Source of the DNA: an uncultured bacterium
GTDB taxonomy: Bacteria > Pseudomonadota > Alphaproteobacteria > SP197
NCBI GenBank assembly: GCA_938014945.1
Contig: CALLQH010000080.1
Span: 1 to 56,577 of the forward strand
Direction: 5' to 3'
Length of the DNA: 56,577 bases
Part shown: positions 13,678 through 39,272 of the stretch, one piece after another
How the letters are laid out: the number at the start of each line of letters is the position of its first letter
How positions within the stretch are numbered: position 1 is the first letter of the stretch
Made by a program: the position numbers and the translations under genes
The notes under the pieces: generated by a model
Databases searched by the model: none
What the model was told of the DNA's origin: nothing
What the model saw: only the letters and a program-made list of their open reading frames with translations

Positions 13678-14444
13678 CAGAGTTCGTTGCCAGCAGGATT
13701 CGCGAAGGCGTTCTGGAGATCCGCCTCAACCGGCCAGAGAAGAAGAACGCCCTCAATCCCGAGATGTACGCCGCCGTCGCGGATGCCCTGCGCAGCGCCG
13801 ACGAGGACCCCGCCGTGCGCGTGGCATGGATCACCGGCAGCGGCGATTCCTTTTCCAGCGGCAACGACGTCTCGAGCTTCGTCGACGGTTCGCGCAGGCC
13901 CGGCGAACACCCGCCCGCCCATGACTTCCTGATCGCGCTGGCGACCATGGCCACGCCGCTTGTCGCGGCGGTCAACGGCATGGCGGTGGGCGTGGGCGCG
14001 ACCATGCTGCTCCACTGCGACATGGTCCATGCCTCAGGCTCGGCCACCTTCCGCTTTCCCTTCGTCGACCTGGGCGTCTTTCCCGAGGCGGCATCGACCG
14101 TGATCCTGCCGCGCATCGCAGGTCACCAGCGGGCGATGGAGATGTTCCTGCTGGGCGAGAGGTTCGATGCCGAAACCGCCCGTGAGGCCGGCATGGTCAA
14201 CCGGATCTTCGAGGACTCCGCCCTGGAGGAGGAAAGTCTCGCTGTCGCGCGCCGCCTGGCCGCAAAGCCGGCAAGCGCCCTGCGCGAGACCAAGGCGCGC
14301 GTACGCGCCGCGGGGCCCGACCTCGCCGCCATCATCAACGAGGAACTCGCGGCCTTCGGCGACATGGTGCGCTCGCCCGAGGCGCAGGAGGCCTTCAACG
14401 CCTTCCTGGAGAAGCGCAAGCCCGACTTTTCCCGCTTCGACTGA
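13674..14444 (+). CDS. Enoyl-CoA hydratase/isomerase (crotonase) family
   Basis: Motifs LNRPEKKNALN, ITGSGDSFSSGNDV and AVNGMAVGVGATMLLHCD. The ATGA overlap with the upstream gene indicates translational coupling. Confidence 0.9.
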   Translation: MTEFVASRIREGVLEIRLNRPEKKNALNPEMYAAVADALRSADEDPAVRVAWITGSGDSFSSGNDVSSFVDGSRRPGEHPPAHDFLIALATMATPLVAAVNGMAVGVGATMLLHCDMVHASGSATFRFPFVDLGVFPEAASTVILPRIAGHQRAMEMFLLGERFDAETAREAGMVNRIFEDSALEEESLAVARRLAAKPASALRETKARVRAAGPDLAAIINEELAAFGDMVRSPEAQEAFNAFLEKRKPDFSRFD

Positions 14445-16898: not shown

Positions 16899-17999
16899 TC
16901 AGGCGTCGAGGCGGTACTCGGTATAGGCGATGGTGCCCTCGTAGGGCGCGCGGGCGATCCACATGACGCGATCGGTTGTGTCCATGATCACCGTGGCCAC
17001 CGTGGAGTGCAGCTCCTCGCCGCTGGAATCGTCCGAACCGGGCGCCGCGAGCACGCCCGAGGGCCAGCCCCACTTGTCGGAGAAGGCATCCTGCAGATCA
17101 CTGACCGTCAGGCTGCCGCCGCCCTGGCGCAGCCGCCGCTCCACGCGGCTGTCGCGGTAGATCGAGCTTGGCGAACTGGAGAGCCCGGTGTCGACCACCC
17201 GCGCACGCGCCGCGGCGGTGCGGAAATGGTTGGCGTGCACCAGCAAACCCTGCTCGGGCTTCTCCCAGAAGATCTCCTGGGGCGTCGTCTCCAGATCGAT
17301 CGCCTCGCCGTCGGCGTGGGAGATCATCAGGTTGTTGGCGAAGGAACGGCGCGCCTTGTAAACGACGCCGACGGCCTGGGCGAAGGTCTCGGCCTCCAGG
17401 ATCTTGCGGCGCATCAGGGGCAGCGGCACGGCGTGTTCGGCCGGAAGCTGGTCGCAGGACAGGAAGTTGCCCGTGACGGCGATGCCCCTGCTGTTCATCC
17501 CAGCGCGCGCCACGATGCCCGCCTCGACGAAGATCAGCAGACGCTCGCCGTTCTCGCGCTCCAGGCGCATGACGATGGCGGAGTCCTTGCAGGCATCGAG
17601 CCAGTCCCAGTTCTGGCCGTGCAGCAGGTGCCCGTTGGCCGTGGCGTCGGGCGTGAGGATGGCGCCGGTGCAGCCGTCGGGTGCCGGATCGCTGCGCAGG
17701 GATCGGTCGTAGAGCAGTTCGGTGCGGGCATTGAGCGCGACGATGTCCTCCACCGCGCGCTCGGCGCCCTCCGCGATGCCCCGGATCTCCGCCGTGATCC
17801 CGGCGTCATAGGCTTCCAGGCGCGGCAGGTAACGCCCGGCAATGGCGCGCACCTGCGCCCAGTCCAGGCCGCGCTGCTGCAGCAACCGGTCGTAGATCGC
17901 GATGCTGGTGGCGAGCCGGTCACCGATCTGGCGGCCGATCTGGCGGCCGCGTTCCAGCGGCGGACCGGCCGCCTCGATCACGGGAAAGCTGCCGGTCAT
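16899..17999 (-). CDS. Peptidase C45 / acyl-CoA:6-aminopenicillanic-acid acyltransferase-family Ntn hydrolase
   Basis: PAPDGCTGAILTPDATANGHLLHGQNWDW, a G-C self-processing site with the QNWDW motif. Start MTGSFPVIEAAG is at 17999. Confidence 0.75.
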   Translation of the reverse strand: MTGSFPVIEAAGPPLERGRQIGRQIGDRLATSIAIYDRLLQQRGLDWAQVRAIAGRYLPRLEAYDAGITAEIRGIAEGAERAVEDIVALNARTELLYDRSLRSDPAPDGCTGAILTPDATANGHLLHGQNWDWLDACKDSAIVMRLERENGERLLIFVEAGIVARAGMNSRGIAVTGNFLSCDQLPAEHAVPLPLMRRKILEAETFAQAVGVVYKARRSFANNLMISHADGEAIDLETTPQEIFWEKPEQGLLVHANHFRTAAARARVVDTGLSSSPSSIYRDSRVERRLRQGGGSLTVSDLQDAFSDKWGWPSGVLAAPGSDDSSGEELHSTVATVIMDTTDRVMWIARAPYEGTIAYTEYRLDA

Positions 18000-18187
18000 G
18001 GCCGGACCCTCGACAAGAAAATCATCGTCATCGCAAGCCTGCCTGCATCTGCTTCGAAGGGCTGCGCCGATGCACCCGGGCGCGCTGCACTGTAACACGG
18101 CATGACGAGGCGCCGGCACCATCGTACGGGTGCCCGGAACACGACATTTGAGTCTAGAGTAACGCCCGGACGGCAGGAGAGCGGGCG

Positions 18188-18880
18188 ATGATGCTGACAC
18201 CCACGGAGATGGAACGGCTGGTGATCTTCACTGCCGCGGAGATGGCGCGCAAGCGCCGGGCGCGGGGACTGAAGCTCAACCACCCGGAGGCCATGGCCCT
18301 GCTCTGCGACGAGATGCTGGAAGCCGCGCGCGACGGGCGCACGCTCGCCGAAGTGATCGCCATGGGTTCGACCATCCTGACGACCGACGACGTGCTGCCG
18401 GGCGTCACGCGCCTGCTGACCATGGTCTCGGTCGAGGGCATGTTCGAGGACGGCTCCAAGATGATCACGGTGTGGGAGCCGATCCGGCCGGGCAAGGAGA
18501 CGGTGGCGGTCTCGCGCCCCGGCGAGGTGCTGACGGGCGAAGGCGACATCGAACTCAATGCGCGCGGAGAGAAAAGCGTTCTGCGCGTCATCAACACCGG
18601 CGACCGGCCGGTGCATGTGGCAAGCCACCTGCATTTCTTCGAGGCCAATGCGGAGCTGGAATTCGACCGCGAGGCCGCCTTCGGCAAACGCCTCGATCTG
18701 CCCGCCGGTGCGACGGCGCGCTTCGATCCGGGTGAGAACCGGGAGGTGACGCTGACGGCGATCGCAGGCACCGGCGAGGTGCGCGGTCTCAACCGACTGA
18801 CCGAGGGCTCGATCCACGATCCGGCCGTGAAGGCAGCGGCGCTCGAGCGGGCGCGCGCCCGCGGCTTCCGGGGGGCCTGA
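18188..18880 (+). CDS. ureAB: Urease fused gamma-beta subunit
   Basis: The first ~100 aa are UreA-like (MLTPTEMERLVIFTAAEMARKRRARGLKLNHPEA...FEDGSKMITVWEPI). The rest is UreB-like (INTGDRPVHVASHLHFFEANAELEFDREAAFGKRLDLPAGATARFDPGE), all in one ORF. Confidence 0.9.
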   Translation: MMLTPTEMERLVIFTAAEMARKRRARGLKLNHPEAMALLCDEMLEAARDGRTLAEVIAMGSTILTTDDVLPGVTRLLTMVSVEGMFEDGSKMITVWEPIRPGKETVAVSRPGEVLTGEGDIELNARGEKSVLRVINTGDRPVHVASHLHFFEANAELEFDREAAFGKRLDLPAGATARFDPGENREVTLTAIAGTGEVRGLNRLTEGSIHDPAVKAAALERARARGFRGA

Positions 18881-18883
18881 GCC

Positions 18884-20593
18884 ATGGCGACCATGACGCG
18901 GGCGGCCTATGCCGCCATGTTCGGCCCGACCACGGGCGACCGCATCCGCCTCGGCGACACGGACCTGCTGGTGAAGATCGAGCACGACCACGCGACCTAC
19001 GGCGAGGAATGCGTCACGGGCGTGGGCAAGACCCTGCGCGACGGCGCGGGCATCGACGGTGCTGCGACGCTGGCGGGCGGCGCGCTGGAAATGGCGATCT
19101 GCAATGTCGTCATCATCGATCCCGTGCTGGGCGTGGTGAAGGCCGACATCGGCATCAACGGCGGACGGATCGCGGCCATCGGCAAGGCGGGCAATCCGGC
19201 GATCATGGCGGGCGTCACCCCTGGCATGACCATCGGCCCCGGCACCAAGCACATGAACGCGCAGGGGCTGATCGCCACACCCGGCGGCACGGACGTGCAC
19301 GCCCACTACGCCCAGCCCGCCGAGGTCTGGCACGCCCTCTCCTCGGGCCTCACCACCATGATCGGCGGAGGTTATCCCGGTTGCTGGTCGATCGATTCCG
19401 GCGGCGACTGGGCCAACGCCAAGATGCTGAAGTCGCTGGAAGAATTTCCGATGAACTTCGGCCTGTTCAGCCGGGGCGGCGCGCACGATCCCGCAACCAT
19501 CCGCGAGCAGATCGGTTCGGGCGTGATCGGCGTGAAGATCCACGAGGATCTGGGCGCCATGCCCGCCTCGATCGACACCTGCCTGTCGGTCGCCGACGAG
19601 ATGGACTTCCAGGTCCAGCTCCACACCGACACGATGAACGAGTCCGGTTTCTACGAAAGCACCATGGCGGCCATCGCCGGGCGCACCATCCACATGTACC
19701 ACACGGAGGGTGCGGGCGGCGGCCACGCCCCCGACATCATCCGTTGCAACGGCGCGGCGCACTGCCTGCCCAGCTCGACGAATCCGACCAACCCGTTCAC
19801 GGCCAACGCGTTTGATGAGCACATGGACATGATGATGATGTGCCACACGCTGAGCGCCGACGTGCCCGAGGACGTCGCCTTCGCCGAAAGCCGCCTGAGG
19901 CCCCAGACCATGGCCGCCGAGGACGTGCTGCATGATCTGGGCGCCATCTCCATGTTCGGGGCCGACGCCGAAGGCATGGGCCGGGTCATGGACGTCGTCA
20001 CCTCCACCTGGCGTCTGGCGCACAAGATGAAGGGCGAGCGCGGTGCGCTGGCCGGCGAACCCTATGCCGATGCCGACAACGCGCGGGTGCTGCGTTATCT
20101 CGCCAAGTACACCATCAACCCGGCGATCACCTTCGGCATCGCCGAGCACATCGGCAGCCTGGAACCCGGCAAGATGGCCGACATCGTGCTCTGGAACCCG
20201 GCCTTCTTCGGCGTCAAGCCAACGCAGGTCATCAAGGGCGGTGTCGAGGTGTGGGGCCCCATCGGCGATGCCGCCGGGTCGCTTTCGCTGGTCGAGCCGC
20301 GCATCTACCGCAAGCAGTGGCCGGCCTGCGGCAGCGCGCCCGACACCCTCTCGGCGATCTTCGTCCATCCGCTGGCCATCGAGAACGACATGGCCGGGCG
20401 CTGGAATGTCTCCAAGCCGCTGGTGCCGCTGAAGGGCACGCGCAAGCTCTCCAAACACGACATGGTGCGGAACGACGCCCTGCCCGACATCCGCGTCGAT
20501 CCCCAGACCTTCGAGGTCTTCGTCGATGGGGAACTGGCGACAAGCGAAGCCGTGCGCGAGGTGAGACTGGCGCGTCGCTACTTCCTGCGCTGA
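18884..20593 (+). CDS. ureC: Urease alpha subunit (divergent)
   Basis: Motifs DVHAHY (HxH), GVKIHEDLG (Lys + His), [27 protein letters not shown] and GADAEGMGR. The start lies 3 nt after the ureAB stop. Confidence 0.9.
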
Positions 20594-22016: not shown

Positions 22017-22769
22017 ATGGCCGAATTCGAAGGCAAGGTGGCGCTCATCACGGGCGCGGGGCGCGGCATGGGGCTGGTGGACGCGCTGCTGATGGCAGAG
22101 CGTGGCGCATCCATCGTGATCCAGGAGATCGAAGCCGATCTTGCCGCCGAGGCGACCGAGAAGGTGCGCGCAACCGGCGCGGAGGTCTTCACCATCGTCA
22201 GCGACGTCGCCGACGTCGCCACGACCCAGGCGAAGATCCGCGAGGCCGAGGCCCACTTCGGACGCATCGACATTCTGGTCAACAACGCCGGCATCGGGCT
22301 GGGCGGCGACCTGCAGGACGTGACCGAGGCCGACTTCGACCTTTCCACCGCGGTCCATGTGAAGGGCAGCTTCTTTGCCACCCAGGCGGTGGTCCCGGGC
22401 ATGAAAGCGCGGCGCAGCGGCGCCATCGTCAACATCTCCTCGATCTGGGGCATGACGGGTTATCACAGCGCCTCGATCTACTGCGGCGCCAAGGCCGCCC
22501 TGCTGGGCCTCACCAAGGCATGGGCCAAGGAACTCGCCCCCTGGAACATCCGCGTCAATGCGGTCGCGCCGGGCTGCGTGCTGACCGAGATGACCATTCA
22601 CAAAGGCAAGGAATACATCGACGAGCGCGCCAAGCTCATCCCTCTCGGCCGCTGGGCGCAGCCCGAGGAGATGTGCGAGGCGGTGGTCTATCTCGCCTCC
22701 GAACGGGCGAGTTTCGTCACCGGCCAGTGCATCAGCCCCAACGGCGGCGACACCATCGTCGGCATCTGA
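22017..22769 (+). CDS. SDR-family oxidoreductase (FabG-like)
   Basis: Motifs GKVALITGAGRGMG, NNAGIG, YCGAKAALLGLT and PNGGDTIVG. Confidence 0.9.
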   Translation: MAEFEGKVALITGAGRGMGLVDALLMAERGASIVIQEIEADLAAEATEKVRATGAEVFTIVSDVADVATTQAKIREAEAHFGRIDILVNNAGIGLGGDLQDVTEADFDLSTAVHVKGSFFATQAVVPGMKARRSGAIVNISSIWGMTGYHSASIYCGAKAALLGLTKAWAKELAPWNIRVNAVAPGCVLTEMTIHKGKEYIDERAKLIPLGRWAQPEEMCEAVVYLASERASFVTGQCISPNGGDTIVGI

Positions 22770-22774
22770 ACCGC

Positions 22775-24643
22775 TCAGTTCGCCGCGGTGAGACCAAGGG
22801 CGCCGATCACCGCCGAGGCCGTCGCCTCGGGTGCATCGCCGACCCGGAAGCTGCGCCCGCCAGCAGCGGCGATGACGAACGCGAGTTCGCCCCCGGTCGC
22901 CGCGGCGCTGTCGGCGAAGACCACGGTATCGCAGGCCTGCCACGGCAGGCCGCGGCGCTGCAGGTGTCCGGCATCGCAGAGCAGCACGCCGGCCTCGGCG
23001 ACAGGCTGGGCCAGCACCATGCCGGCGGCACGCACCACATCCTCCACGCCGCGCTGCTGGACCGCCGAGCCGATACCCAGATCACGCCCATCGAACCACG
23101 CGGCGCAGCGGCCCGTGCGGGCGAAACCCTGCACCAGGGCGGCGACCGTTGCCGGGCCCTGCCCGTCCGCCGAACCCACGACCACCACCAACGGCATCGT
23201 CCCGGTCTCGCCGGGGGCAAAGAGCTGGCCCAGCACACCGTCGATCACCTTGGGGAAGACATCGGGAAAGCTGCCGTAGGCCAGCCCCGGGTTCATGTTG
23301 ACCTCGACGATGGCGCAGGGCTGATCGAGGTAGGAGACGGTGATGTCCGGGATCAGCAGGTCGACCCCGGCGATGTCGAGGCCCAGCCCCAGGGCGGCGG
23401 CCTCCGCGAGCCTCTGGTTGTCGGGATGGACGACATCATCGACCGCGACGATCGAACCGCCGAGCTTCATGTTGGCCGTGGTGCGCAACAGCACCGTGCG
23501 GCCCTCAGCGGGCACGCTATGCAGGGCGAGCCCCTCGCGCGCCAGAAGCCGTTCCATGGCTTCGTCCGGCGTGATGGTCACGAGGTCGGCCTGACCGGGA
23601 AGACCACGGCGCGGGTTGGCGTTTTCCACAGCGATCAGCTCGGCAATCGTGCTGCGGCCATCGCCCGCCACCGCGGCACGACGACGCATGGTCGCCGCGA
23701 CCATCCTGCCGCCGCAGACCAGCAGGCGGTGGTCCTCGCCCGGAACCATCTCCTCCACGACAACGACGGGCGCATGACGACGCGCCAGGGCGAAGGCGGC
23801 ATCCAGCTCCGCCTCGTCACGCACATCGGCGGTGATCCCGGAACCACCGGTGCCGCGCTCGGGTTTCACCACCACCGGGAAGCCGATCTGGCGCGCGGCC
23901 GCACGGGCATCCTCCGCGCCAGCGGCGGTAACCTGGCGCGGCACCGGCAGCCCGAGCCGAGCGAGAAGATGCACCGTCTGGCTCTTGCTCCCGGTCACCG
24001 CGCCGGCCACCGCCGAACTGCGGTCCGTGATGGTGCCCATGACCTGGCGCTGGAAGCGGCCGTGGCCGAAGCGCACGTGGTTGACGAAGCGCGCGCCCTG
24101 ATGGAGCCGCTGCACCGGGATGCCGCGTTCGCGCGCGGCCTGGACCATCACGGAGACGGCATGGTCGCGCGCCTCTGCCCTGGCCCGTGCGACAAAGGCG
24201 TCAAGCGCCTCGGGCAGGCGCGCGGTCCCCGCTACGGCATGAGCGACCATCATCAGGGCCGCACGGAACGCCAGGGCGCCGATGGATGCCTGTTCGATCT
24301 CGCAGGCGATGACGCAGTGGCCCTCGTGATCGGCCTTCTCGACCTGGGCCCTGCTCACCGGGTCGCCGAAGATGCGCTGCAGCTCCACGGCCACGGCGGC
24401 CACCACCGTGGCGGACGACACCGGGCCGGTCTCGTCCGCCAGGGCGGCCAGCAGAGGACCGGGCGGGTCGTTGCGGCGCAGGCGCAAGGCGTCGAGGGAC
24501 TGCAGCAGACGCGCCCGCCGCGCCGTGCCGACCGCCCGGACGGGGAGAACGAGGCGCACCCGCAGTGCGGGACAGGGCAAGGCCGGATTGGGGCCATCGA
24601 AAAACTCGGTCCGGACGATTTCCCAGCTTCGAGACGCCGCCAT
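22775..24643 (-). CDS. Cyanophycin-synthetase-like protein, truncated (N domain + ATP-grasp + vestigial Mur-ligase domain; CphA2-like architecture)
   Basis: CphA-like N-terminus (WEIVRTEFFDGPNP...). ATP-grasp core (GFPVVVKPERGTGGSGI, DHRLLVCGGRMVAA, DIAGVDLLIPD, IVEVNMNPGL). The last 140 aa (22778..23197) align to the start of the CphA M domain, but the P-loop reads GSADGQG instead of GTNGKTT. Confidence 0.7.
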   Translation of the reverse strand: MAASRSWEIVRTEFFDGPNPALPCPALRVRLVLPVRAVGTARRARLLQSLDALRLRRNDPPGPLLAALADETGPVSSATVVAAVAVELQRIFGDPVSRAQVEKADHEGHCVIACEIEQASIGALAFRAALMMVAHAVAGTARLPEALDAFVARARAEARDHAVSVMVQAARERGIPVQRLHQGARFVNHVRFGHGRFQRQVMGTITDRSSAVAGAVTGSKSQTVHLLARLGLPVPRQVTAAGAEDARAAARQIGFPVVVKPERGTGGSGITADVRDEAELDAAFALARRHAPVVVVEEMVPGEDHRLLVCGGRMVAATMRRRAAVAGDGRSTIAELIAVENANPRRGLPGQADLVTITPDEAMERLLAREGLALHSVPAEGRTVLLRTTANMKLGGSIVAVDDVVHPDNQRLAEAAALGLGLDIAGVDLLIPDITVSYLDQPCAIVEVNMNPGLAYGSFPDVFPKVIDGVLGQLFAPGETGTMPLVVVVGSADGQGPATVAALVQGFARTGRCAAWFDGRDLGIGSAVQQRGVEDVVRAAGMVLAQPVAEAGVLLCDAGHLQRRGLPWQACDTVVFADSAAATGGELAFVIAAAGGRSFRVGDAPEATASAVIGALGLTAAN

Positions 24644-24649
24644 GGCCGG

Positions 24650-24967
24650 CTATCGGTTGAGGCCGGACACGAGGCCTGCCGTCAGCGAACCGGGGCCGTC
24701 CTGGACGCCGCCCGCCATGACCTGGACGTTGACGGCGATCTCCGCGCCGCTGGGAGCATGGTCGATCTCGAAGCCGACCTGCGCGCCGTCGCGCGGGCAG
24801 AAGAAGCCGCGGTAGAAGACGAGAATCAGCGGATAGCCATCGGCAAAGTCCATCATCTCGTCATAGGGCGTGGCCGCGGTGAGGTCCGACAGCCGAGTCT
24901 CCCGGCCGCGATGATCGGGCAGGCAAAGGTCGGGAAAGGGCTCCCCCGCCCGGGGAATGGCTGGCAT
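24650..24967 (-). CDS. Redoxin/peroxiredoxin-like protein, only N-terminal half (possible gene remnant)
   Basis: GEPFPDLCLPDHRGRETRLSDL...PLILVFYRGFFCPRD resembles the AhpC/TSA N-terminal half. The ORF ends after 105 aa, whereas the family is usually ~160-200 aa. GAGGGAGAG lies 7 nt before the ATG. Confidence 0.45.
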   Translation of the reverse strand: MPAIPRAGEPFPDLCLPDHRGRETRLSDLTAATPYDEMMDFADGYPLILVFYRGFFCPRDGAQVGFEIDHAPSGAEIAVNVQVMAGGVQDGPGSLTAGLVSGLNR

Positions 24968-25041: not shown

Positions 25042-26325
25042 ATGTCGGAAAAGGGATACGCCGCGCTCTTCTTCACGTCGAGAGCCATCGCCATGTTCAA
25101 AGCCGTCGCCTCGGTCTGGGCCCTGCTTCTGGGAGTCGCGCTGTTCATGATGGGCAGCGGCCTCCAGGGATCGCTGCTGGGCGTGCGCGCGGGGACCGAA
25201 GAGTTTTCCACGGTGGTGACCGGCGTGGTGATGTCGGCCTATTTCGCGGGCTTCCTGATCGGTTCGATGATCGTGCCGCGTCTGGTGGCGCGCGTCGGCC
25301 ACATCCGCGTCTTCGGCGCGCTTGCCTCCCTCGCCTCCGTGGCCGTGCTGATGCATGCCGTGTTCGTCGATCCGGTGACCTGGATCGCCCTGCGGCTGCT
25401 GACCGGGTTCTGCTACTTCGGCCTTTTCGTGGTTGCCGAAAGCTGGCTCAACGAACGCTCGACCAACGCCACCCGCGGCCAGCTCCTGTCGGTCTACGTC
25501 ATCGTGATGACCGGCTGCATGGCGCTGGGGCCGTTGCTGCTCAACATCGGCAACCCGGACGGCTTCGACCTCTTCATCGCCGCATCGGTGATGGTCTCGC
25601 TGGCGCTCGTTCCGCTGTCCCTGACGGCCTATCCCGCGCCCGCCTTCCATGAACTGGAGAAGCTGAAGCTCACCCAGCTTTACCGCATCTCTCCCCTGGG
25701 CGTGATCGGCTGCGTGACCAACGGTGCAACCTCCGGCGCACTGATCTGGCTCGCCTCGGTCTATGCCCAGAAGGTCGGCATGCCGATCGCCAGCGTCTCG
25801 CTGTTCGCCTTTGCCTCGATCGTGGGCGGCATGGTGCTTCAGTGGCCGCTCGGCCATCTCAGCGATATCTTCGACCGCCGCCAGGTGATCACCGGAACGG
25901 CGCTGACCGGGGCTGTGCTGGCCATCTTCGCCGCGCTCTACGGCGGCAGCAATCCGCTGATTCTGATGCTGGCCGTGGGCACGGTCGGCGGCATGGCAAT
26001 TCCGCTCTACACGCTGTCGGTTGCCCACACCAACGACCACCTGGAACCGCGCCAGATGGTCGCCGCCAGCAGTGGCCTGCTCTTTGCCAACGGTCTGGGC
26101 GGCATCGCCGGGCCCGCCCTGGCGGGCGGCACGATGGCGATCCTGGGGCCGTCCGGATACTTCTGGTTTCCCGGCGCGGCGATGGGCGTGCTGGGCCTGT
26201 TTGCCCTGTGGCGCATGACGCAGCGGCCTGCGCTGCCCAACGACGAACAGTTGCCCTATGTCGCCGTGCCGCGGACATCCAGCAGCGGCGCCGCCCTGGC
26301 CCTGGGCGACCAGGCAGAGGCCTAG
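25042..26325 (+). CDS. MFS transporter
   Basis: About 12 hydrophobic segments, with the loop motif between TM2 and TM3 (VPRLVARVGHIRVF). Confidence 0.85.
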   Translation: MSEKGYAALFFTSRAIAMFKAVASVWALLLGVALFMMGSGLQGSLLGVRAGTEEFSTVVTGVVMSAYFAGFLIGSMIVPRLVARVGHIRVFGALASLASVAVLMHAVFVDPVTWIALRLLTGFCYFGLFVVAESWLNERSTNATRGQLLSVYVIVMTGCMALGPLLLNIGNPDGFDLFIAASVMVSLALVPLSLTAYPAPAFHELEKLKLTQLYRISPLGVIGCVTNGATSGALIWLASVYAQKVGMPIASVSLFAFASIVGGMVLQWPLGHLSDIFDRRQVITGTALTGAVLAIFAALYGGSNPLILMLAVGTVGGMAIPLYTLSVAHTNDHLEPRQMVAASSGLLFANGLGGIAGPALAGGTMAILGPSGYFWFPGAAMGVLGLFALWRMTQRPALPNDEQLPYVAVPRTSSSGAALALGDQAEA

Positions 26326-26340
26326 CCCCGTGCGACCGGC

Positions 26341-26727
26341 TCAGTCGTCGTAGTCGATCTCGGCCCGCGCGATCTCGCAATAGGCCATTGCGCCACGCTT
26401 GTAGACGGCAAGCCGCTGTGCGGGCAGCAGTTCGGCGATGCAGTTGGGCGTGCCGTAATCATCCATCTCCCAGGATTCCACGGTGACCTTGAGGCGCGTA
26501 ATGTTGACGCGGACACATTCCATGGCCGGCACACGCATCTCGATGAGCGCCGTGTCATGCACGGTCACCCGAAGATCGGTGTTGAGCTGGTTGTCGATCA
26601 GGATCTGGCCACCCTTGCTGCTGACCGCCGGGCAGCCCTCATCGATGAGGCCCACCTGGATGAGCGCGAAATACGCTCCCCAAATGAGCCCGGCAGCGAT
26701 CACCGCCAGAACGAAGAAAAACTTCAT
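26341..26727 (-). CDS. Hypothetical membrane-anchored protein
   Basis: N-terminal TM or signal anchor (MKFFFVLAVIAAGLIWGAYFALI). GC3-rich codon usage. I recognised no family. Confidence 0.5.
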   Translation of the reverse strand: MKFFFVLAVIAAGLIWGAYFALIQVGLIDEGCPAVSSKGGQILIDNQLNTDLRVTVHDTALIEMRVPAMECVRVNITRLKVTVESWEMDDYGTPNCIAELLPAQRLAVYKRGAMAYCEIARAEIDYDD

Positions 26728-30356: not shown

Positions 30357-31202
30357 ATGTTCGAAAGCGGCCTGCTGAAGGGCAAGAAGTTCCTGGTCAC
30401 CGGCGGCGGCACGGGGCTGGGCAAGGCGATGGCGTCGCGCTTTTCCGAGCTGGGCGCCGAGATTGTCATCTGCGGTCGGCGCCTGGAGGTGCTGGAGGAG
30501 ACGGCCGGAGAGATCGCCGCCGCAACCGGCGGTACGGTCGGTGTGCGCCAGATCGACATCCGCGACGCCGAGGGCGTCGATACCATGATCGAGTCCATCT
30601 GGGCCGAGGGGCCGCTCGACGGACTCGTCAACAATGCCGCGGGAAACTTCATCTCCAGGACCGAGGAACTCTCCCACCGCGCCGTCGACGCCGTGCTCAA
30701 CATCGTGCTGCACGGCACATCCTATGTGACGCTGGCCTGCGGCAAGCGCTGGCTCGCCGAAGAGCGCAAGGCAACCGTTCTTTCGATCATCACCACCTAC
30801 GCCTGGACCGGCTCGGCCTATGTCGTGCCCTCGGCGATGGCGAAGGCCGGCGTTCTGGCGCTGACGCGCAGCCTGGCGGTCGAGTGGGGCGGCAGGGGCA
30901 TCCGGCTCAACGCCATCGCGCCCGGCCCCTTCCCCACACCCGGCGCCTGGGACCGGCTGATGCCGAAATCCGGCGAACTCGCCGATGACGGCATGGGGGC
31001 CGCCAGCGTGCCGCTGGGGCGCGTCGGCGAGCACAGCGAGCTTGCCAACCTGGCGAGCTTCCTGATGTGCGACGGCTCTGCTTATATCAACGGCGAGGTC
31101 GTCACCATCGACGGCGGCGAGTGGCTGCAGGGCGCCGGCCAGTTCAACTTCCTGCGCAAGATGTCGGACGCCGACTGGGCGGCCATGAAACCCAAGAAGT
31201 AG
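30357..31202 (+). CDS. SDR-family oxidoreductase (2,4-dienoyl-CoA reductase-like)
   Basis: Motifs KFLVTGGGTGLGKAMA, NNAAGNF and PSAMAKAGVLALTRSLA. Start ATG 30357 is chosen downstream of the repeat. Confidence 0.8.
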   Translation: MFESGLLKGKKFLVTGGGTGLGKAMASRFSELGAEIVICGRRLEVLEETAGEIAAATGGTVGVRQIDIRDAEGVDTMIESIWAEGPLDGLVNNAAGNFISRTEELSHRAVDAVLNIVLHGTSYVTLACGKRWLAEERKATVLSIITTYAWTGSAYVVPSAMAKAGVLALTRSLAVEWGGRGIRLNAIAPGPFPTPGAWDRLMPKSGELADDGMGAASVPLGRVGEHSELANLASFLMCDGSAYINGEVVTIDGGEWLQGAGQFNFLRKMSDADWAAMKPKK

Positions 31203-31234
31203 GGCATACGCCCCTCACCTTTCGGATCATCACC

Positions 31235-33322
31235 ATGCTGAACGAACGTCGCCGCGAAAACCTCAAGCGCGCCCTCAATCCCCGCACCGTCTGTTACGTC
31301 GGCGGCGCCTTCCTGGAAAACACGATCCAGTACAACCGCCGCCTGGGCTTCGACGGCGAGGTCTGGGTCGTGAACCCCAAGTACGAAAGCATCGGCGGGG
31401 CCAGGTGCTACCCCACGGTCGACGACCTGCCGGGCGCTCCCGACGCCACCTTCATCGCGGTCAACCGCGAGATGACCAACCAGGTGGTGAAGAGCCTGGC
31501 CGCACGCGGTGCGGGCGGCGCGATCTGTTATGCCGCGGGTTACTCCGAGGTCGGCGGCGTCGGCCCGGCACTGGAGGACGAGCTGCGGGCCAACGCCGGC
31601 GACATGGCGCTGGTCGGCCCCAACTGCTACGGCATCAACAACTTCCTGCACGGTGTGCCCCTGCTCGCCATCGCCTCCTCGGGCGAGCGGGTGGAGCGCG
31701 GCTGCGCCTTCATCGCCCAGAGCGGCAACCTGTGCATCAATGTCTCCAACAACAAGCGCAACGCCGAGCTGGCCTACGTCATCTCCTGCGGCAACCAGGC
31801 GGTGCTCGACATCGCCGACTATGTCGACGTGCTGATCGACAACCCCGCGATCACCTGCTTTGCGCTCTTCGTCGAGGCGATCCCGGACGTGCCCCATTTC
31901 AGCCGTGTCGCCCTGCGGGCGCTGAAGGCGGGCAAGCCGATCATCGCCATCAAGTCCGGCGTCTCCGAGCTCGGCAAGAAGATGGCGCTCTCCCACACCG
32001 CCTCGCTGGCGGGCGACGACTCCCTCTACCAGGCGCTGTTTGATCGGCTCGGCATCATCCGCGTCTCGACCCCGGTGGAACTGCTGGAGACCGCGAAGTA
32101 CATCACGGTCACCGGGGTGCCCAAGGGCCGGCGCCTGGCCGTGTTCACCTGCTCGGGCGGCGACTCCGAGACGGTGGCCGATCTTGGCGATCCCCTGGGC
32201 GTCATCCTGCCCCAGCCCAACCCGCAGCAGTTCAAGGAACTGCGCGCGGTGATGCCGGAGTTCGCCAATGTCACCAACCCCTTCGACTACAACACCAACT
32301 TCTGGGGCAATTACGAGGTCCTGGTGAAGCTCTTCCATGTCCTGCTGCGCGAGGGCGTGGATGCCGGCCTGCTGATCGTGGACTCGCCCGCCGAGACGAA
32401 CAACGAGCACAAGAGCGAGACCGACGCCGTGGTCCAGGCGACCCGCGATGCCGGACGCAAGGCCGGCGTGCCGGTCGCCTATTGCTCGGTCATGCCGGAG
32501 GCCTCCAACTCGGCCATGCGCAAGTGGAGCCATGAGGACGGCATCGCCTCGCTCCAGGGCATTCGCGAAGGCGTCGGCGCGGTGGCGCGCACGGCCGCCT
32601 TCGGCGAGCGCCGCCAGCAGCTTCTGGCCCGCGCCGAACTCGACAGCCACGCCCTGCCCGACATCCACCCGCTTTCGGGCGAACCCCGCGCGCTCGACGA
32701 GTGGCAGGGCAAGCAGGACCTGGCGGCCTATGGCCTCTCCGTACCCTCCGGGCGCACCGCGACCATCGCGGGCGCGGCCGAAGCCGCGCAGGCGGTGGGT
32801 TTCCCGGTGGCGGTCAAGCTGCTGTCGGACACGATCCTGCACAAGACGGACGTCGGCGGCGTGGCGCTCAACCTGACGAGCCCGGAACTGGTCGCCGCCG
32901 CGGCGTGCGACATGGCCGACCGTCTGGGTGTCACCCAGGTGCTGGTGGAGCCCATGGCGCCCAAGCCGGTCGCCGAGATGATCATCGGCATCACCCGTTC
33001 GGAGGAGTTCGGTCCCGTACTGGTGGTCGGCGCCGGCGGCGTGCTGGTGGAACTCTACAAGGATGCCGCCTCCCTGCTGCTGCCCGCGCACGAGGACGAC
33101 ATCCGCGCCGCCATCGACGGCCTGAAGATCGCCAGGCTGCTCGACGGCTTCCGCGGCGGCCCCAAGGGCGACCGCGAGGCCCTGGTGCAGGCGGTCAAGG
33201 CGGTCGCGGCCTATGCGGAGGCCAACCGCGATACCCTGGCCGAACTCGACGTCAATCCGCTGTTCGTCCTGCCCGAGGGGCAGGGGGCCGTCGCCGTCGA
33301 CGCCCTGATCCGCAAGGTCTGA
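31235..33322 (+). CDS. ADP/NDP-forming acyl-CoA synthetase (acetate--CoA ligase family), paralogue 2
   Basis: MLNERRRENLKRALNPRTVCYVGG is collinear with the 11548 protein. Motifs ALSHTASLAGD and GFPVAVKLLSDTILHKTDVGGV. Confidence 0.85.
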   Translation: MLNERRRENLKRALNPRTVCYVGGAFLENTIQYNRRLGFDGEVWVVNPKYESIGGARCYPTVDDLPGAPDATFIAVNREMTNQVVKSLAARGAGGAICYAAGYSEVGGVGPALEDELRANAGDMALVGPNCYGINNFLHGVPLLAIASSGERVERGCAFIAQSGNLCINVSNNKRNAELAYVISCGNQAVLDIADYVDVLIDNPAITCFALFVEAIPDVPHFSRVALRALKAGKPIIAIKSGVSELGKKMALSHTASLAGDDSLYQALFDRLGIIRVSTPVELLETAKYITVTGVPKGRRLAVFTCSGGDSETVADLGDPLGVILPQPNPQQFKELRAVMPEFANVTNPFDYNTNFWGNYEVLVKLFHVLLREGVDAGLLIVDSPAETNNEHKSETDAVVQATRDAGRKAGVPVAYCSVMPEASNSAMRKWSHEDGIASLQGIREGVGAVARTAAFGERRQQLLARAELDSHALPDIHPLSGEPRALDEWQGKQDLAAYGLSVPSGRTATIAGAAEAAQAVGFPVAVKLLSDTILHKTDVGGVALNLTSPELVAAAACDMADRLGVTQVLVEPMAPKPVAEMIIGITRSEEFGPVLVVGAGGVLVELYKDAASLLLPAHEDDIRAAIDGLKIARLLDGFRGGPKGDREALVQAVKAVAAYAEANRDTLAELDVNPLFVLPEGQGAVAVDALIRKV

Positions 33323-33333
33323 AGGAGAGAGAG

Positions 33334-34146
33334 ATGAGCAACGAGGTCGTTCACACCGTCCGCCGCGGCAAGGTTCTCGAGATCACCATCGACAACCCGC
33401 CGGCCAACGCCATCGGCCGCAAGGTGACCCAGGGCCTTTCCAGGGCCTTCACCACCCTGCGCGACGATCCCGATCTGCTGGTCGGCATCGTCACCGGCTC
33501 AGGGAGCAAGTTCTTCTCGCCGGGCTGGGACCTGAAGGAGGGTGCCGCCGAGATCGACGCCAAGGAAAGCGGCAGCAGCGACGACATCAGCTACAGCAAC
33601 GAGGGCGGCTTTGCCGGCATCACCGAGCTGTGGAACCTCTACAAGCCGGTGATCGCGGCGATCAACGGCTATGCCGTGGGCGGCGGCTGGGAGATCGCAC
33701 TGTCCTGCGACATCCAGTACGCCGTGCCGCACGCCACCTTCTTCGTGCCCGACGTGCACCGCGGATTCGTCGCCGATGCCGGTGCGATCCAGATCCTGCC
33801 GCGCCGCCTGCCCCACTCCATTGCGATGGACGTGCTGCTGTCGGGCCGCCGGGTAAACGCCGAGGAGGCGCTGAAGTGGGGTCTCATCAACGAGATCGTC
33901 GAGCCCGAAAAGCTGATGGAACGCGCCCGTGAGATGGCCGACCACCTGGCCAAGGGTGGCCCGCTTGCCCTGCAGGCGACCAAGGCGGCGGTGCGCCATA
34001 CCATGCACCTTTCCATCCCGGACTGCTTTGCCGCCCTGCGCGACGGCAGCCTGCCGATCTACCAGGCGATGCTCGATTCCGAGGACGCCAAGGAAGGCCC
34101 GCGCGCCTTCGCCGAAAAGCGCGAGCCGGTGTTCAAGGGCCGCTGA
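33334..34146 (+). CDS. Enoyl-CoA hydratase family (carnitinyl-CoA dehydratase CaiD-like)
   Basis: Motifs ITIDNPPANAIG, VTGSGSKFFSPGWDLKE and INGYAVGGGWEIALSCD. GAAGGAGAGAGAG lies before the ATG. Confidence 0.85.
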   Translation: MSNEVVHTVRRGKVLEITIDNPPANAIGRKVTQGLSRAFTTLRDDPDLLVGIVTGSGSKFFSPGWDLKEGAAEIDAKESGSSDDISYSNEGGFAGITELWNLYKPVIAAINGYAVGGGWEIALSCDIQYAVPHATFFVPDVHRGFVADAGAIQILPRRLPHSIAMDVLLSGRRVNAEEALKWGLINEIVEPEKLMERAREMADHLAKGGPLALQATKAAVRHTMHLSIPDCFAALRDGSLPIYQAMLDSEDAKEGPRAFAEKREPVFKGR

Positions 34147-35578: not shown

Positions 35579-36361
35579 TCAGCCTGCGCCCCGCACGAAG
35601 GTCTCGCGCCCGCCACTGACATTGAGCACGGTGCCGCTGACATAAGAGGCCTCGGGCGAGGCCATCCAGACGACGGCATTGGCGATGTCCTCGACCTCGC
35701 CGATGCGCCCCAGCGGCACGGCCCGCTTGCCCATCTCCACGACGGCGTCCTGGCCCATGCCGGTGTCGCTGTCCCACATTTCGGTGCGGATGAGGCCCGG
35801 GCGTATGCCGACGACGCGGATGCCTTCCGGCGCGATCTCCTTGGCAAGGCCGATGGTGAAGCTGTCGAGCCCGCCCTTGGTGCCGGCGTAGATGACATCG
35901 CCCGGCAGGCCGCCGTAGAGGCCCGAGATCGAGGAGATGTTCACGATGACGCCGCCCTTGCCGCCGCGCCTGGTCGACATGCGGCGGATCGCCTGCTGGC
36001 AGGTCATGGCTGGGCCCAGCAGGTTGGTCTCGATGATGCGGCGCATCACCTCGGGGTCCTGATCGCCAATCGGCGTTTCGATGGAGATCGCGGCGTTGTT
36101 GACCAGAACGTCGACCGGGCCAAGCTGGCTGTCGGTTTCGGCAAACAGCCGCTCGACATCGCCGGGCCTGGCGACATCGGCCTGCACCGCAATTGCGCGC
36201 GCGCCATGGCTGCGCACCTCCTGTGCGACCGCCTCGGCGCGGTCGGCCGCAGCGGTGTAGTTGACGCAGACGTCGTAGCCCTGGCGACCGGCAAGGCGCG
36301 CGATACCCGCCCCGATTCCGCGGCTGCCGCCGGTTACGATCATGATTCCCTTGCTCGCCAT
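35579..36361 (-). CDS. SDR-family oxidoreductase
   Basis: Motifs MIVTGGSRGIGAGIA, NNAAISI and YAGTKGGLDSFT. Confidence 0.9.
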   Translation of the reverse strand: MASKGIMIVTGGSRGIGAGIARLAGRQGYDVCVNYTAAADRAEAVAQEVRSHGARAIAVQADVARPGDVERLFAETDSQLGPVDVLVNNAAISIETPIGDQDPEVMRRIIETNLLGPAMTCQQAIRRMSTRRGGKGGVIVNISSISGLYGGLPGDVIYAGTKGGLDSFTIGLAKEIAPEGIRVVGIRPGLIRTEMWDSDTGMGQDAVVEMGKRAVPLGRIGEVEDIANAVVWMASPEASYVSGTVLNVSGGRETFVRGAG

Positions 36362-36553
36362 CGCGTCACGCTCCGTGTGTTCGAGATGAGAGACTCGCCA
36401 ATCGCTGGCGATCCCGCAAGGCCTCAGCGAGCAGCCAGGCGCGAAAACGTCCGATCCATGATTCCCAGCCGGTCCGGGACGACCGCATGGGCCTCTGGCC
36501 CCGGCGACCGCCCGGGGTTAAAGAAGACCGCGCACCGTCGGGGAGAACGAGAC

Positions 36554-39154: not shown

Positions 39155-39272
39155 GGGCGGTCCCTTGTGTGACGGTGTGGAACAAGGTTCGTCCCCGCCC
39201 GGCGTGAGCGCAAGGGAGAAGAATTCCGCGCCTCCGTGAGTTAAACTATCGCTGACCTGCCCGGAGTGCGAG

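What the first reader, a model, noticed from the sequence alone, without database searches (positions are those of the whole stretch)
22775..24967. CphA2-like truncated cyanophycin-synthetase homologue in a non-cyanobacterial catabolic context, with no cyanophycinase nearby
Seen in sequence: the 622-aa ORF opens with a CphA-type N domain (WEIVRTEFFDGPNP...). It continues into a complete ATP-grasp domain (GFPVVVKPERGTGGSGI, DHRLLVCGGRMVAA, IVEVNMNPGL). It then has only 140 aa (22778..23197) that align to the first part of the CphA Mur-ligase (M) domain. In that remnant the P-loop GTNGKTT reads GSADGQG, with no lysine, and the rest of the M domain is missing. Established knowledge: CphA1 is about 900 aa with N, G and M domains. 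Cyanobacterial CphA2 is a shortened form with a defective M domain that polymerises beta-Asp-Arg dipeptides using the G domain alone. Inference: this may be a CphA2-type polymerase, or a new amino-acid/peptide ligase derived from it. It sits in a proteobacterial genome, 6 nt downstream of a half-length redoxin ORF with no SD in the gap, which suggests translational coupling. No cphB/cphE or isoaspartyl dipeptidase is present in the 56 kb window.
Basis: partly seen in the sequence, partly recalled or inferred. Interest (0 to 1): 0.7.

Follow-up and report, generated by a model that had tools for sequence, protein, structure and literature searches.

The report
Divergent truncated cyanophycin-synthetase-like ATP-grasp ligase
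This gene encodes a rare, fast-evolving relative of cyanophycin synthetase that has the shortened shape of cyanobacterial CphA2 and keeps the ATP-using core, but has lost most of the residues that recognise cyanophycin, so it probably joins some other, still unknown, molecules.

Summary
The 622-aa ORF (22775..24643, minus strand) is real and has the described build: a CphA-type N domain, a complete ATP-grasp G domain, and a 142-aa remnant of the Mur-ligase M domain whose P-loop reads GSADGQG. An AlphaFold model (pLDDT 91.7) superposes on CphA1 and, over its full length, on CphA2. It is probably not a cyanophycin enzyme. All ATP/Mg/acyl-phosphate residues are kept. Five substrate-recognition sites of CphA1/CphA2 are replaced: E215/D212 by Ala, H267 by Gly, S396/S395 by Lys, R458 by Ala, LGPST by RDHAV. 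These changes, or equivalent losses, recur in relatives only 41-46% identical. The family is tiny and comes from uncultured Pseudomonadota, one labelled Rhodospirillaceae. It always lies divergent from an MFS transporter and usually beside an SDR gene and an accessory-less urease. It evolves 2-10 times faster than its neighbours (dN/dS 0.19-0.30). The "half-length redoxin" upstream is an in-frame 192-codon deletion remnant of a 297-aa peroxiredoxin/cold-shock-domain gene. No cyanophycinase or isoaspartyl dipeptidase lies in the window. Best reading: a new CphA-superfamily ligase subfamily of unknown substrate. Relationship to CphA2 is unresolved.

The parts
22775..24643 (-). 622-aa CphA-superfamily protein (N domain + ATP-grasp G domain + truncated M domain), plus stop codon
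   Evidence: ORF and GC3. NCBIfam and PDB hits. AlphaFold2 model with pLDDT 91.7 and pTM 0.85. Foldseek hits to CphA1 and CphA2.
24164..24643 (-). N domain (residues 1-160). CphA-type fold. The Cx19HxxEH primer-generating peptidase motif is absent (T79, A82, A83).
   Evidence: hhalign 98.1% probability, E 7e-14; CphA1-N HMM 44 bits. Alignment to SuCphA1. Motif definition from PMC9262961.
23204..24163 (-). G domain (residues 161-480), a complete ATP-grasp domain. Catalytic residues K220, K260, E297, R306, R320, D360, R387, N391, D428, E447 and N449 are kept.
   Evidence: Residue mapping to TeCphA1 and StCphA2. Column tables over 48 and 39 sequences.
23837..23866 (-). G-domain phosphate loop KPERGTGGSG (residues 260-269). 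CphA1 has KPxDGN(H/Q)G(R/K)G; the essential His267 position is Gly266.
   Evidence: SuCphA1 H267A is the G-domain-dead mutant in PMC9262961, and the residue's role is described in PMC9427784.
23465..23467 (-). Lys393, in place of the essential Ser of the G-omega large loop (Te S396, St S395)
   Evidence: St S395A and Su S396W are inactive.
23279..23281 (-). Ala455, in place of Te R458 (binds the alpha-carboxylate of incoming Asp) or St Y457. The motif PGLAYGSFP is invariant in the close clade.
   Evidence: Role of R458 from PMC9427784.
22778..23203 (-). Truncated M-domain remnant (residues 481-622). It aligns with the first ~115 residues of the CphA1 Mur-ligase domain.
   Evidence: Residues 459-622 searched alone hit SuCphA1 472-584 at E 3e-7, with no CphA2 hit at E<=10. 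dN/dS 0.17-0.45.
23156..23176 (-). Degenerate Mur-ligase P-loop GSADGQG (residues 490-496), where CphA1 has GTNGKTT
24650..24967 (-). 105-aa ORF that is an in-frame 192-codon internal-deletion remnant of a 297-aa AhpC/TSA + cold-shock-domain gene. Its stop lies 6 nt before the cphA-like ATG.
   Evidence: Residues 1-63 match full-length residues 1-63 (56/63 identical) and residues 64-105 match 256-297 (33/42) of the L001 protein. Gap sequence.
25042..26325 (+). Divergently transcribed MFS transporter, the only neighbour conserved in every locus of the extended family where the upstream side is present
   Evidence: Pfam MFS_1. Synteny in L001-L011, L015, L016, L017 and L018.
22017..22769 (+). 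Convergent SDR oxidoreductase ending 5 nt from the cphA-like stop. Conserved in the close clade and in L017.
18188..20593 (+). Urease gamma/beta fusion and urease alpha genes, with no ureDEFG in the window. Conserved near the cphA-like gene, also in L017.
   Evidence: (both pass NCBIfam cut-offs).

Best explanation
The gene encodes a member of a small, previously undescribed subfamily of the cyanophycin-synthetase (CphA) superfamily.

Architecture. It has the CphA2-like build: a non-catalytic N domain, one catalytic ATP-grasp G domain, and a short inactive M-domain stub kept for folding or oligomerisation.

Inferred mechanism. The G domain binds ATP and Mg2+, phosphorylates a substrate carboxylate to an acyl-phosphate, and lets an amine attack it to form an amide bond.

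Inferred substrate. The residues that recognise the Arg-decorated cyanophycin primer and the incoming Asp or beta-Asp-Arg are replaced by a different, family-conserved set. The substrates are therefore most likely not cyanophycin building blocks. They would be another carboxylate/amine pair, either a small molecule or a peptide. They may be handled together with the divergently encoded MFS transporter. The gene is accessory, under relaxed but real purifying selection.
For: Shown: fold and domains.
- The AlphaFold2 model has pLDDT 91.7.
- Foldseek gives CphA1 E 1e-50 and CphA2 E 1e-42 with TMt 0.78.
- The N domain is supported by profiles and the M stub by sequence.

Shown: the catalytic core is intact.
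- K220, K260, E297, R306, R320, D360, R387, N391, D428, E447 and N449 are kept in all nine close homologues. Those shown in the segment table are also kept in P0136 and P0283, at 41-46% identity.

Shown: specificity residues are changed in a family-consistent way.
- TGSK replaces A(S/G)DK, and position 215 is non-acidic.
- The phosphate loop reads KP(E/D)RG(T/S)GGxGIT.
- The large loop reads TAN(M/L/I)K(L/S)GG.
- There is no Arg at the R458 position.
- LGPST is absent.
- Published mutants at these positions (H267A, S396W, S395A, R458A, E215A, D212A-equivalent) reduce or abolish cyanophycin synthesis.

Shown: selection. dN/dS is 0.19-0.30, and all three domains are below 0.5.

Shown: context.
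- The MFS-divergent arrangement is conserved at 41-46% protein identity.
- No cphB, iadA or iaaA lies in 56 kb.

Inferred: the nature of the substrates and any link to the MFS transporter.
Against: No substrate is identified.
- Position 393 is Lys in most members but Asp in P0007 and P0008, so it may not be a specificity determinant.
- E215 is also non-acidic in the ~855-860-aa CphA1-type proteins in the alignment, many of them from Betaproteobacteria. SuCphA1 E215A keeps half its activity.
- In this set the gene and an adjacent 128-aa hypothetical gene are the fastest-evolving: 60-75% identity and dN 0.18-0.33, against 86-98% and 0.02-0.10 for most neighbours; the SDR lies between at 75-92%. 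Its upstream partner gene has decayed. This is compatible with a gene losing function.
- The neighbourhood is a loose mosaic of divergently and convergently oriented genes, not an operon, so context gives little functional information.
- The NJ tree does not exclude common ancestry with CphA2.
Confidence: 0.6

Rival explanations
1. It is a functional CphA2 analogue: a single-site polymerase that re-polymerises beta-Asp-Arg, or a closely related dipeptide, into cyanophycin or a cyanophycin-like polymer in a proteobacterium.
For: - The N-G-truncated-M architecture is the same, and the full-length structural match to GcCphA2 and StCphA2 has TM 0.73-0.78.
- St D362, R389 and N393 equivalents, and R308/R322 equivalents, are kept.
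- There is a weak NJ grouping with StCphA2, bootstrap 52%.
- The window holds arginine/guanidino-catabolic genes (agmatinase family, DDAH-like) and a urease.
Against: - D212/E215, the T163/P162-type crevice, S395 and the His/Lys of the phosphate loop are all replaced. Mutation of each abolishes or strongly reduces activity in CphA2 or CphA1.
- No cyanophycinase or isoaspartyl dipeptidase lies in 56 kb.
- The sequence is closer to CphA1 than to CphA2, and the M stub matches only CphA1.
- A different short family (P0050/P0084 type) keeps D215, S396 and R458, and is a better candidate for that role.
Confidence: 0.12
2. It is a decaying relic: an ex-cyanophycin-synthetase gene that lost its M domain and substrate sites, now has little or no function, and drifts under relaxed selection.
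For: - Amino-acid divergence is 2-10 times that of flanking genes: dN 0.18-0.33 against 0.02-0.10, and 41-46% identity against 63-80% at greater distance.
- The upstream Prx-CSD gene is deleted to different extents in sister lineages.
- P0008 carries a 25-aa deletion in the M stub.
- The family is very rare: nine 90%-identity clusters in 5.8 billion sequences.
Against: - The ORF is intact and of near-constant length in all loci.
- dN/dS is 0.19-0.30, not about 1, in each domain.
- All eleven ATP-grasp catalytic residues are kept in the close clade, and those checked are kept down to 41% identity.
- New family-specific motifs are conserved: GTGG loop, NxK(L/S)GG, and PGLAYGSFP in the close clade.
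- Synteny with the MFS gene is kept.
Confidence: 0.15
3. It is a polymerase for a different, unknown polyamide. Like CphA it would extend a chain at its C-terminus, but with other monomers.
For: - It retains the N domain and M stub that CphA enzymes use for oligomer scaffolding.
- The nearest sister groups occur as tandem, translationally overlapping pairs (L014), or as double-module fusions. One fusion carries a PGA_cap/CapA capsule-synthesis domain at E 2e-52.
Against: - The window's family is a single gene without such a partner.
- The neighbour is an MFS transporter, which is typical of small molecules.
- No conserved primer-binding surface can be identified with the tools at hand.
Confidence: 0.13

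Closest known systems
Cyanophycin synthetase 2 (CphA2; GcCphA2 PDB 7ta5, StCphA2 PDB 8fxh/8fxi)
   Same: - It has three domains: N, one active ATP-grasp G domain, and a ~140-150-aa truncated, P-loop-less M domain.
- The total length is about 620-640 aa.
- The full-length structural superposition has TM 0.73-0.78.
- The N-domain HxxEH motif is absent.
- The D362, R389, N393, R308 and R322 equivalents are kept.
   Different: - Sequence identity is 21-25%.
- The host is a proteobacterium, not a cyanobacterium.
- D212 is Ala, H208 is Ala, S395 is Lys, K263 is Gly, and Y457 is Ala.
- The P162/T163-type crevice is not conserved.
- No cphA1 or cphB lies nearby.
- The M stub has no detectable sequence match to the CphA2 M stub.
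- Phylogenetic affinity is unresolved.
Cyanophycin synthetase 1 (CphA1; PDB 7lgn, 7lgm, 7wac, 7lg5)
   Same: - It is the best sequence and structure match: E 5e-72, 28-31% identity, Foldseek E 1e-50.
- N and G are collinear, and so is the first ~115 residues of M.
- ATP/Mg ligands, R309, R323 and N394 are kept.
   Different: - About 260-300 C-terminal residues of the M domain are missing, and the Mur-ligase P-loop is dead.
- H267, S396, R458, E215, LGPST and Cx19HxxEH are all replaced.
- It scores 365 bits against the NCBIfam cut-off of 877.
N-acetylglutaminylglutamine synthetase Ngg and the GshF/GshAB ATP-grasp module
   Same: - Both are CphA-G-like ATP-grasp domains recruited for single ligations of small peptides.
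- Scores are TIGR03103 E 9e-49 and GshAB E 1e-42.
- Ngg (L013) also has PGLA at the position where CphA1 has PGFR.
   Different: - It has no GNAT domain and no glutamate-cysteine ligase domain.
- It has the CphA N domain and M stub instead.
- It has no asnO or peptidase neighbours.
Other uncharacterised truncated CphA-like families seen here (P0010/P0140 tandem pairs; P0050/P0084 short family)
   Same: - They are 600-700 aa, with a degenerate M-domain P-loop, and are non-cyanobacterial.
- P0010 is the sister group of the window's clade (bootstrap 94%).
   Different: - The P0010 and P0140 types keep the STGG loop and occur as adjacent paralogue pairs.
- The P0050 type keeps D215, S396 and R458, and is much closer to CphA1 (E 1e-126).

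Membership tests
ATP-grasp superfamily (active enzyme) | Two ATP-binding lysines, the Mg2+ ligands Asp/Glu/Asn, and the Arg that stabilises the acyl-phosphate | tested here: met
   K220, K260, D428, E447, N449 and R306 are invariant in 48 aligned sequences, including the clade.
CphA superfamily | CphA-type N domain preceding the G domain | tested here: met
   hhalign gives 98.1% probability, E 7e-14. The full-length Foldseek match begins in the N domain. Single-sequence searches were not significant.
CphA1 | Complete Mur-ligase M domain with P-loop GTNGKTT (the Arg-adding site) | tested here: not met
   The protein ends ~115 aligned residues into the M domain, and the loop reads GSADGQG.
CphA1 | G-domain residues H267, S396 and R458, plus E215, for the cyanophycin primer and the incoming Asp | tested here: not met
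   G266, K393, A455 and A215. R309, R323 and N394 are kept.
CphA1 | NCBIfam equivalog/subfamily score cut-off | tested here: not met
   365 bits against 877 for PRK14016; 329 against 850 for TIGR02068.
CphA2 | N + G + truncated inactive M architecture | tested here: met
   Foldseek to 7ta5 gives E 1e-42, TMq 0.73, TMt 0.78, over 597 columns. The P-loop is degenerate.
CphA2 | Cyanophycin-binding residues (St D212, T163/P162, R308) | tested here: not met
   D212 is A215 in the direct alignment to 8fxh. The P162/T163 crevice could not be read from that alignment, which starts at St residue 168; the equivalent CphA1 LGPST region reads RDHAV. R308 is kept as R306.
CphA2 | Putative beta-Asp-Arg site (St D362, R389, N393, S395) | tested here: inconclusive
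   D360, R387 and N391 are kept. S395 is K393, or Asp in P0007 and P0008. S395A is inactive in StCphA2.
CphA2 | Monophyly with cyanobacterial CphA2 | tested here: inconclusive
   The NJ tree of the G domain groups them at bootstrap 52% on long branches, and only one CphA2 sequence was available. G-domain bit scores are 225 to CphA1 and 170 to CphA2.
CphA2 | Co-occurrence with cphA1, cphB and an isoaspartyl dipeptidase in the genome | not testable with these tools
   None lie in the 56-kb window or in the related loci. The whole genomes could not be searched.
Ngg (NAGGN synthetase) / GshF | N-terminal GNAT domain (Ngg) or glutamate-cysteine ligase domain (GshF) fused to the ATP-grasp domain | tested here: not met
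   Only the ATP-grasp part aligns. The real Ngg locus L013, shown for contrast, has asnO-ngg-peptidase.

The most novel reading that the evidence does not exclude
The window's family may belong to an unrecognised radiation of CphA-derived, Mur-domain-less ATP-grasp enzymes that make non-cyanophycin amide-linked products. The radiation would also include the sister families found here: tandem P0010/P0140 pairs and double-module fusions, one of them with a CapA/PGA_cap domain. In this reading the window's enzyme produces a new peptide or polyamide, using substrates that have no guanidinium side chain. The product or precursor would be moved by the conserved divergent MFS transporter.
Probability: 0.2. 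Interest if true: 0.8.

Novelty: new variant of a known kind. Interest (0 to 1): 0.55.

Why it matters
The literature read here describes CphA2 as a cyanobacterial speciality and treats CphA1 and CphA2 as the only cyanophycin synthetases.

- **More shortened lineages exist.** The CphA scaffold has been shortened to N-G-stub in several non-cyanobacterial lineages. It is unresolved whether this lineage shares that truncation with CphA2.
- **The substrate sites have been rebuilt.** In at least this lineage the substrate-binding residues were replaced while the catalytic machinery was kept.
- **Possible payoff.** If the enzyme is active, it offers a new amide-bond-forming catalyst, or possibly a polymerase. 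It would also be a natural experiment on which residues set specificity in cyanophycin synthetases, which the CphA2 structural papers could not resolve.
- **A caution for annotation.** 'Cyanophycin synthetase' labels on ~600-700-aa homologues should not be read as cyanophycin metabolism.

Tried and rejected
1. **Frameshift or misassembly hiding a full M domain: rejected.** The convergent SDR gene stops 5 nt from the stop codon, and the other full-length homologues are 615-665 aa.
3. **Redoxin as a functional operon partner: rejected.**
   - The ORF is a deletion remnant.
   - The intact 297-aa gene exists only in the P0005/P0006 lineage.
   - It is absent in L015, L017 and L018.
4. **Ngg or GshF identity: rejected.** The fused GNAT or GCL domains are missing.
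5. **Independent truncation relative to CphA2: not proven.** Only the StCphA2 G domain (residues 168-459) could be recovered from an alignment printout, and the NJ backbone has bootstraps below 55%.
6. **Inferring the substrate from neighbours led nowhere specific.** The neighbours are a PLP decarboxylase of MfnA type, an SDR, a urease, a C45 acyltransferase or aminotransferase, a methyltransferase and IclR. Orientations are mixed, and only MFS, SDR and urease persist in distant relatives.
7. **Literature searches found nothing.** Searches for CphA3, CphA-like or truncated non-cyanobacterial synthetases returned only beta-lactamase CphA papers and the known CphA1/CphA2 work.
8. **Organism identity could not be refined.** It stays at 'Pseudomonadota bacterium' MAGs, with one distant relative labelled Rhodospirillaceae.
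Full report
**Observation**

The minus-strand ORF 22775..24643 encodes 622 aa. Its third-position GC is 0.85, typical of real genes in this 68% GC window.

NCBIfam's cyanophycin-synthetase models match residues 76-576 to model positions 74-571 of 871 (E 1e-108). The score of 365 bits is far below the 877-bit cut-off. Pfam sees only generic ATP-grasp domains and a sub-threshold N-domain hit. Among solved structures the best matches are CphA1 enzymes (E 5e-72, residues 9-574). The two CphA2 structures match only the G domain (E 2e-48 and 9e-46).

**Domains tested one by one**

- **N domain.** Residues 1-164 alone find nothing significant in the PDB by phmmer (E 0.5).
  - A profile of the clade's N domains aligns to a profile of 25 CphA1 N domains with 98.1% probability, E 7e-14, over 149 columns.
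  - A CphA1-N HMM scores the window's N domain at 44 bits.
- **M remnant.** Residues 459-622 alone hit SuCphA1 residues 472-584 (E 3e-7). They hit neither CphA2 structure at E<=10.
  - GSADGQG lies where CphA1 has GTNGKTT.
- **Whole protein.** An AlphaFold2 model built on a 48-sequence alignment has mean pLDDT 91.7 and pTM 0.85.
  - Foldseek places it on TeCphA1 (E 1e-50, TM 0.75-0.78).
  - It also places it, over 597 columns, on GcCphA2 (E 1e-42, TM 0.73 on the query and 0.78 on the target).

The architecture N + G + truncated M is therefore confirmed. It is not an assembly artefact. The convergent SDR gene ends 5 nt beyond the stop codon, and the other full-length homologues retrieved are 615-665 aa.

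**Active-site reading**

I mapped the protein onto TeCphA1 (7wac) and StCphA2 (8fxh), using the HMMER alignments. I checked the columns in alignments of 48 and 39 sequences. Residue roles come from PMC9427784, PMC10273328 and PMC9262961.

Kept in the close clade:
- ATP-binding lysines K220 and K260, and E297.
- R306 (Te R309) and R320 (Te R323).
- D360 (St D362), R387 and N391 (Te N394).
- Mg ligands D428, E447 and N449.
- Those shown in the segment table are also kept in the 41-46%-identical relatives P0136 and P0283.

Replaced:

| CphA1 / CphA2 residue | Published role | Window protein |
|---|---|---|
| Te E215 / St D212 | Salt bridge to the primer's terminal Arg | A215 (A/T/S/V in the family) |
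| Te H267 / St K263 | H267A kills the G domain | G266; loop reads KP(E/D)RG(T/S)GGxGIT |
| Te S396 / St S395 | S396W and S395A are inactive | K393 (Asp in P0007 and P0008) |
| Te R458 / St Y457 | Binds the alpha-carboxylate of incoming Asp | A455; PGLAYGSFP invariant in the close clade |
| LGPST (Te 163-167) | Crevice for the second dipeptide | RDHAV |
| N-domain Cx19HxxEH | Primer-generating peptidase motif | Absent (T79, A82, A83) |

One caution applies. Position 215 is also non-acidic in the ~855-860-aa CphA1-type proteins in the alignment, many of them from Betaproteobacteria. SuCphA1 E215A keeps half its activity, so that single change is weak evidence.

Taken together, the catalytic machinery is conserved but the cyanophycin, Asp and beta-Asp-Arg recognition set is not.

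**Family and phylogeny**

- In 5.8 billion clustered proteins, the close clade is nine clusters at 58-100% identity. All come from metagenomes or MAGs labelled only Proteobacteria/Pseudomonadota.
- An exhaustive profile search of 1.84 billion representatives finds one representative for the clade.
  - It then finds P0010-like proteins, P0136, and a set of 650-705-aa relatives scoring 445-571 bits, above any full-length CphA1 (417 bits or less).
- P0136 and P0283 (the latter from a Rhodospirillaceae MAG) share the family signature.
- An NJ tree of the G domain, rooted on an Ngg sequence, gives 100% bootstrap for the clade and 94% for clade + P0010.
  - It gives only 52% for a grouping with StCphA2, and the backbone is unresolved.
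  - Independent truncation relative to CphA2 is therefore neither shown nor excluded.
- On the G domain alone the protein scores 225 and 217 bits to the two non-cyanobacterial CphA1 structures (7lgn, 7lgm), 181 and 161 bits to the cyanobacterial ones, and 170 and 156 bits to the two CphA2 structures.
- A separate short family (P0050/P0084, 626-665 aa) sits with CphA1 (E 1e-126). It keeps D215, S396 and R458.

**Context**

Synteny around the gene is conserved in all close relatives. The order is: two acyl-CoA dehydrogenases, enoyl-CoA hydratase, a 128-aa membrane protein, a divergent MFS transporter, the cphA-like gene, a convergent SDR, a PLP decarboxylase, urease alpha, a fused urease gamma/beta, a C45 acyltransferase or a class-III aminotransferase, a methyltransferase, and IclR.

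In the distant relatives fewer neighbours persist:
- L017 keeps MFS, SDR and urease.
- L018 keeps MFS on the upstream side; its downstream gene differs.

Cyanophycinase (Peptidase_S51), IaaA (Asparaginase_2), IadA and the urease accessory genes are all absent from the 56 kb. Neighbour annotation gives no specific substrate hint.

**Evolutionary rate**

| Comparison | cphA-like gene | Neighbours |
|---|---|---|
| Window vs L004 vs L001, identity | 60-75% | 86-98% for most; SDR 75-92% |
| Same three loci, dN | 0.18-0.33 | 0.02-0.10 for most |
| Same three loci, dN/dS | 0.19-0.30 | 0.05-0.15 for most |
| Versus L017 and L018, identity | 41-46% | MFS 63-80%, SDR 78%, urease alpha 77% |

Each of the three domains stays below dN/dS 0.5. 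The adjacent 128-aa hypothetical gene evolves about as fast (64-75% identity). The gene is thus under purifying but clearly relaxed, or shifting, constraint.

**Upstream ORF**

The 105-aa ORF 24650..24967 is an in-frame deletion of codons 64-255 of a 297-aa AhpC/TSA + cold-shock-domain protein. That protein is intact in L001-L003 and L016. L011 carries a still larger deletion, and L004 a scrambled remnant. L015, L017 and L018 have no such gene.

In all five loci of this sub-lineage a stop codon persists 6-9 nt before the cphA-like ATG, which lacks a Shine-Dalgarno motif. By inference, this fits retention of translational coupling rather than of the redoxin's function.

**Interpretation**

The best-supported reading (confidence about 0.6) is a new subfamily of CphA-derived ATP-grasp ligases. 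It has CphA2-like architecture and a rebuilt substrate site. It would catalyse acyl-phosphate-mediated amide formation on substrates other than cyanophycin units. A link to the divergent MFS transporter is possible.

Rivals:
- A true CphA2 analogue (0.12).
- A decaying relic (0.15).
- A polymerase for another polyamide (0.13). The support for this one is that sister families occur as tandem overlapping pairs (L014) or double modules, one fused to a PGA_cap/CapA domain at E 2e-52.

No paper in the searchable library describes such families.

**Verdict**

The CphA2 interpretation is supported only in part: the architecture matches, the membership does not. I rate novelty as a new variant of a known kind, and interest as moderate (0.55). 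The function remains to be found by biochemistry.

Noticed in passing
window 24650-24967 (-); L001 6117-7010; L016 6221-7114; L011 and L004 upstream of the cphA-like gene: Relatives carry an unusual 297-aa fusion of an AhpC/TSA peroxiredoxin domain with a cold-shock domain. In the window it is reduced by an in-frame 192-codon deletion. L011 has a larger deletion, and the L004 copy is scrambled. In every case a stop codon 6-9 nt before the downstream ATG survives.
   Followed up: yes
window 18188-20593 (+); also L001-L011 and L017: Urease alpha and a fused gamma/beta subunit pass NCBIfam cut-offs and keep the metal-ligand motifs by eye. No ureD/E/F/G lies anywhere in the 56 kb or in the related loci. 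This recalls accessory-independent ureases, or the accessory genes may lie elsewhere.
   Followed up: partly
L014 2-1198 and 1198-3177; proteins P0010, P0138-P0143, P0135, P0137: The sister groups of truncated CphA-like proteins occur as two adjacent paralogues with overlapping stop and start. Some are double-module fusions. P0135 (1752 aa) adds a PGA_cap/CapA capsule-synthesis domain (E 2e-52).
   Followed up: partly
proteins P0050, P0055, P0081, P0084, P0093, P0096 (not in the window): This is a separate 626-665-aa truncated family, very close to CphA1 (E 1e-126). Its Mur P-loop is dead, but D215, S396 and R458 are retained. It is a better candidate for non-cyanobacterial CphA2-like activity.
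   Followed up: partly
window 16899-18200 (-), compared with L001 13536-14885 and L008 16314-17663: The slot between the urease genes and the methyltransferase holds a C45/AAT autoproteolytic acyltransferase in the window and L004. In L001 and L008 the same slot holds a class-III aminotransferase.
   Followed up: no
window 36206-37510 (+) and 38249-39367 (-): An agmatinase-family ureohydrolase, whose longest ORF extends ~125-150 aa upstream of the domain, lies next to a DDAH/arginine-deiminase-fold protein and a LysR regulator. This indicates guanidino-compound catabolism that would feed urea to the urease.
   Followed up: no
window 26341-26727 (-): A 128-aa protein with an N-terminal membrane anchor and no Pfam match is conserved next to the MFS gene. 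Like the cphA-like gene, it evolves much faster (64-75% identity) than its neighbours.
   Followed up: partly
window 11548-14444, 31067-34146, 53262-55385 (+): There are three paralogous ADP-forming acyl-CoA synthetases (CoA_binding_2 + Succ_CoA_lig + ATP-grasp_5). The first two are each followed by an enoyl-CoA hydratase, and the third by a polysaccharide-deacetylase-family gene. Several acyl-CoA dehydrogenases, GSTs and TauD dioxygenases lie around them, so the region is a catabolic mosaic.
   Followed up: no
window 40195-42000 (-): A sensor histidine kinase with a periplasmic NMT1/THI5-like binding domain has noticeably lower third-position GC than its neighbours. My GC3 filter missed it for that reason.
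   Followed up: no
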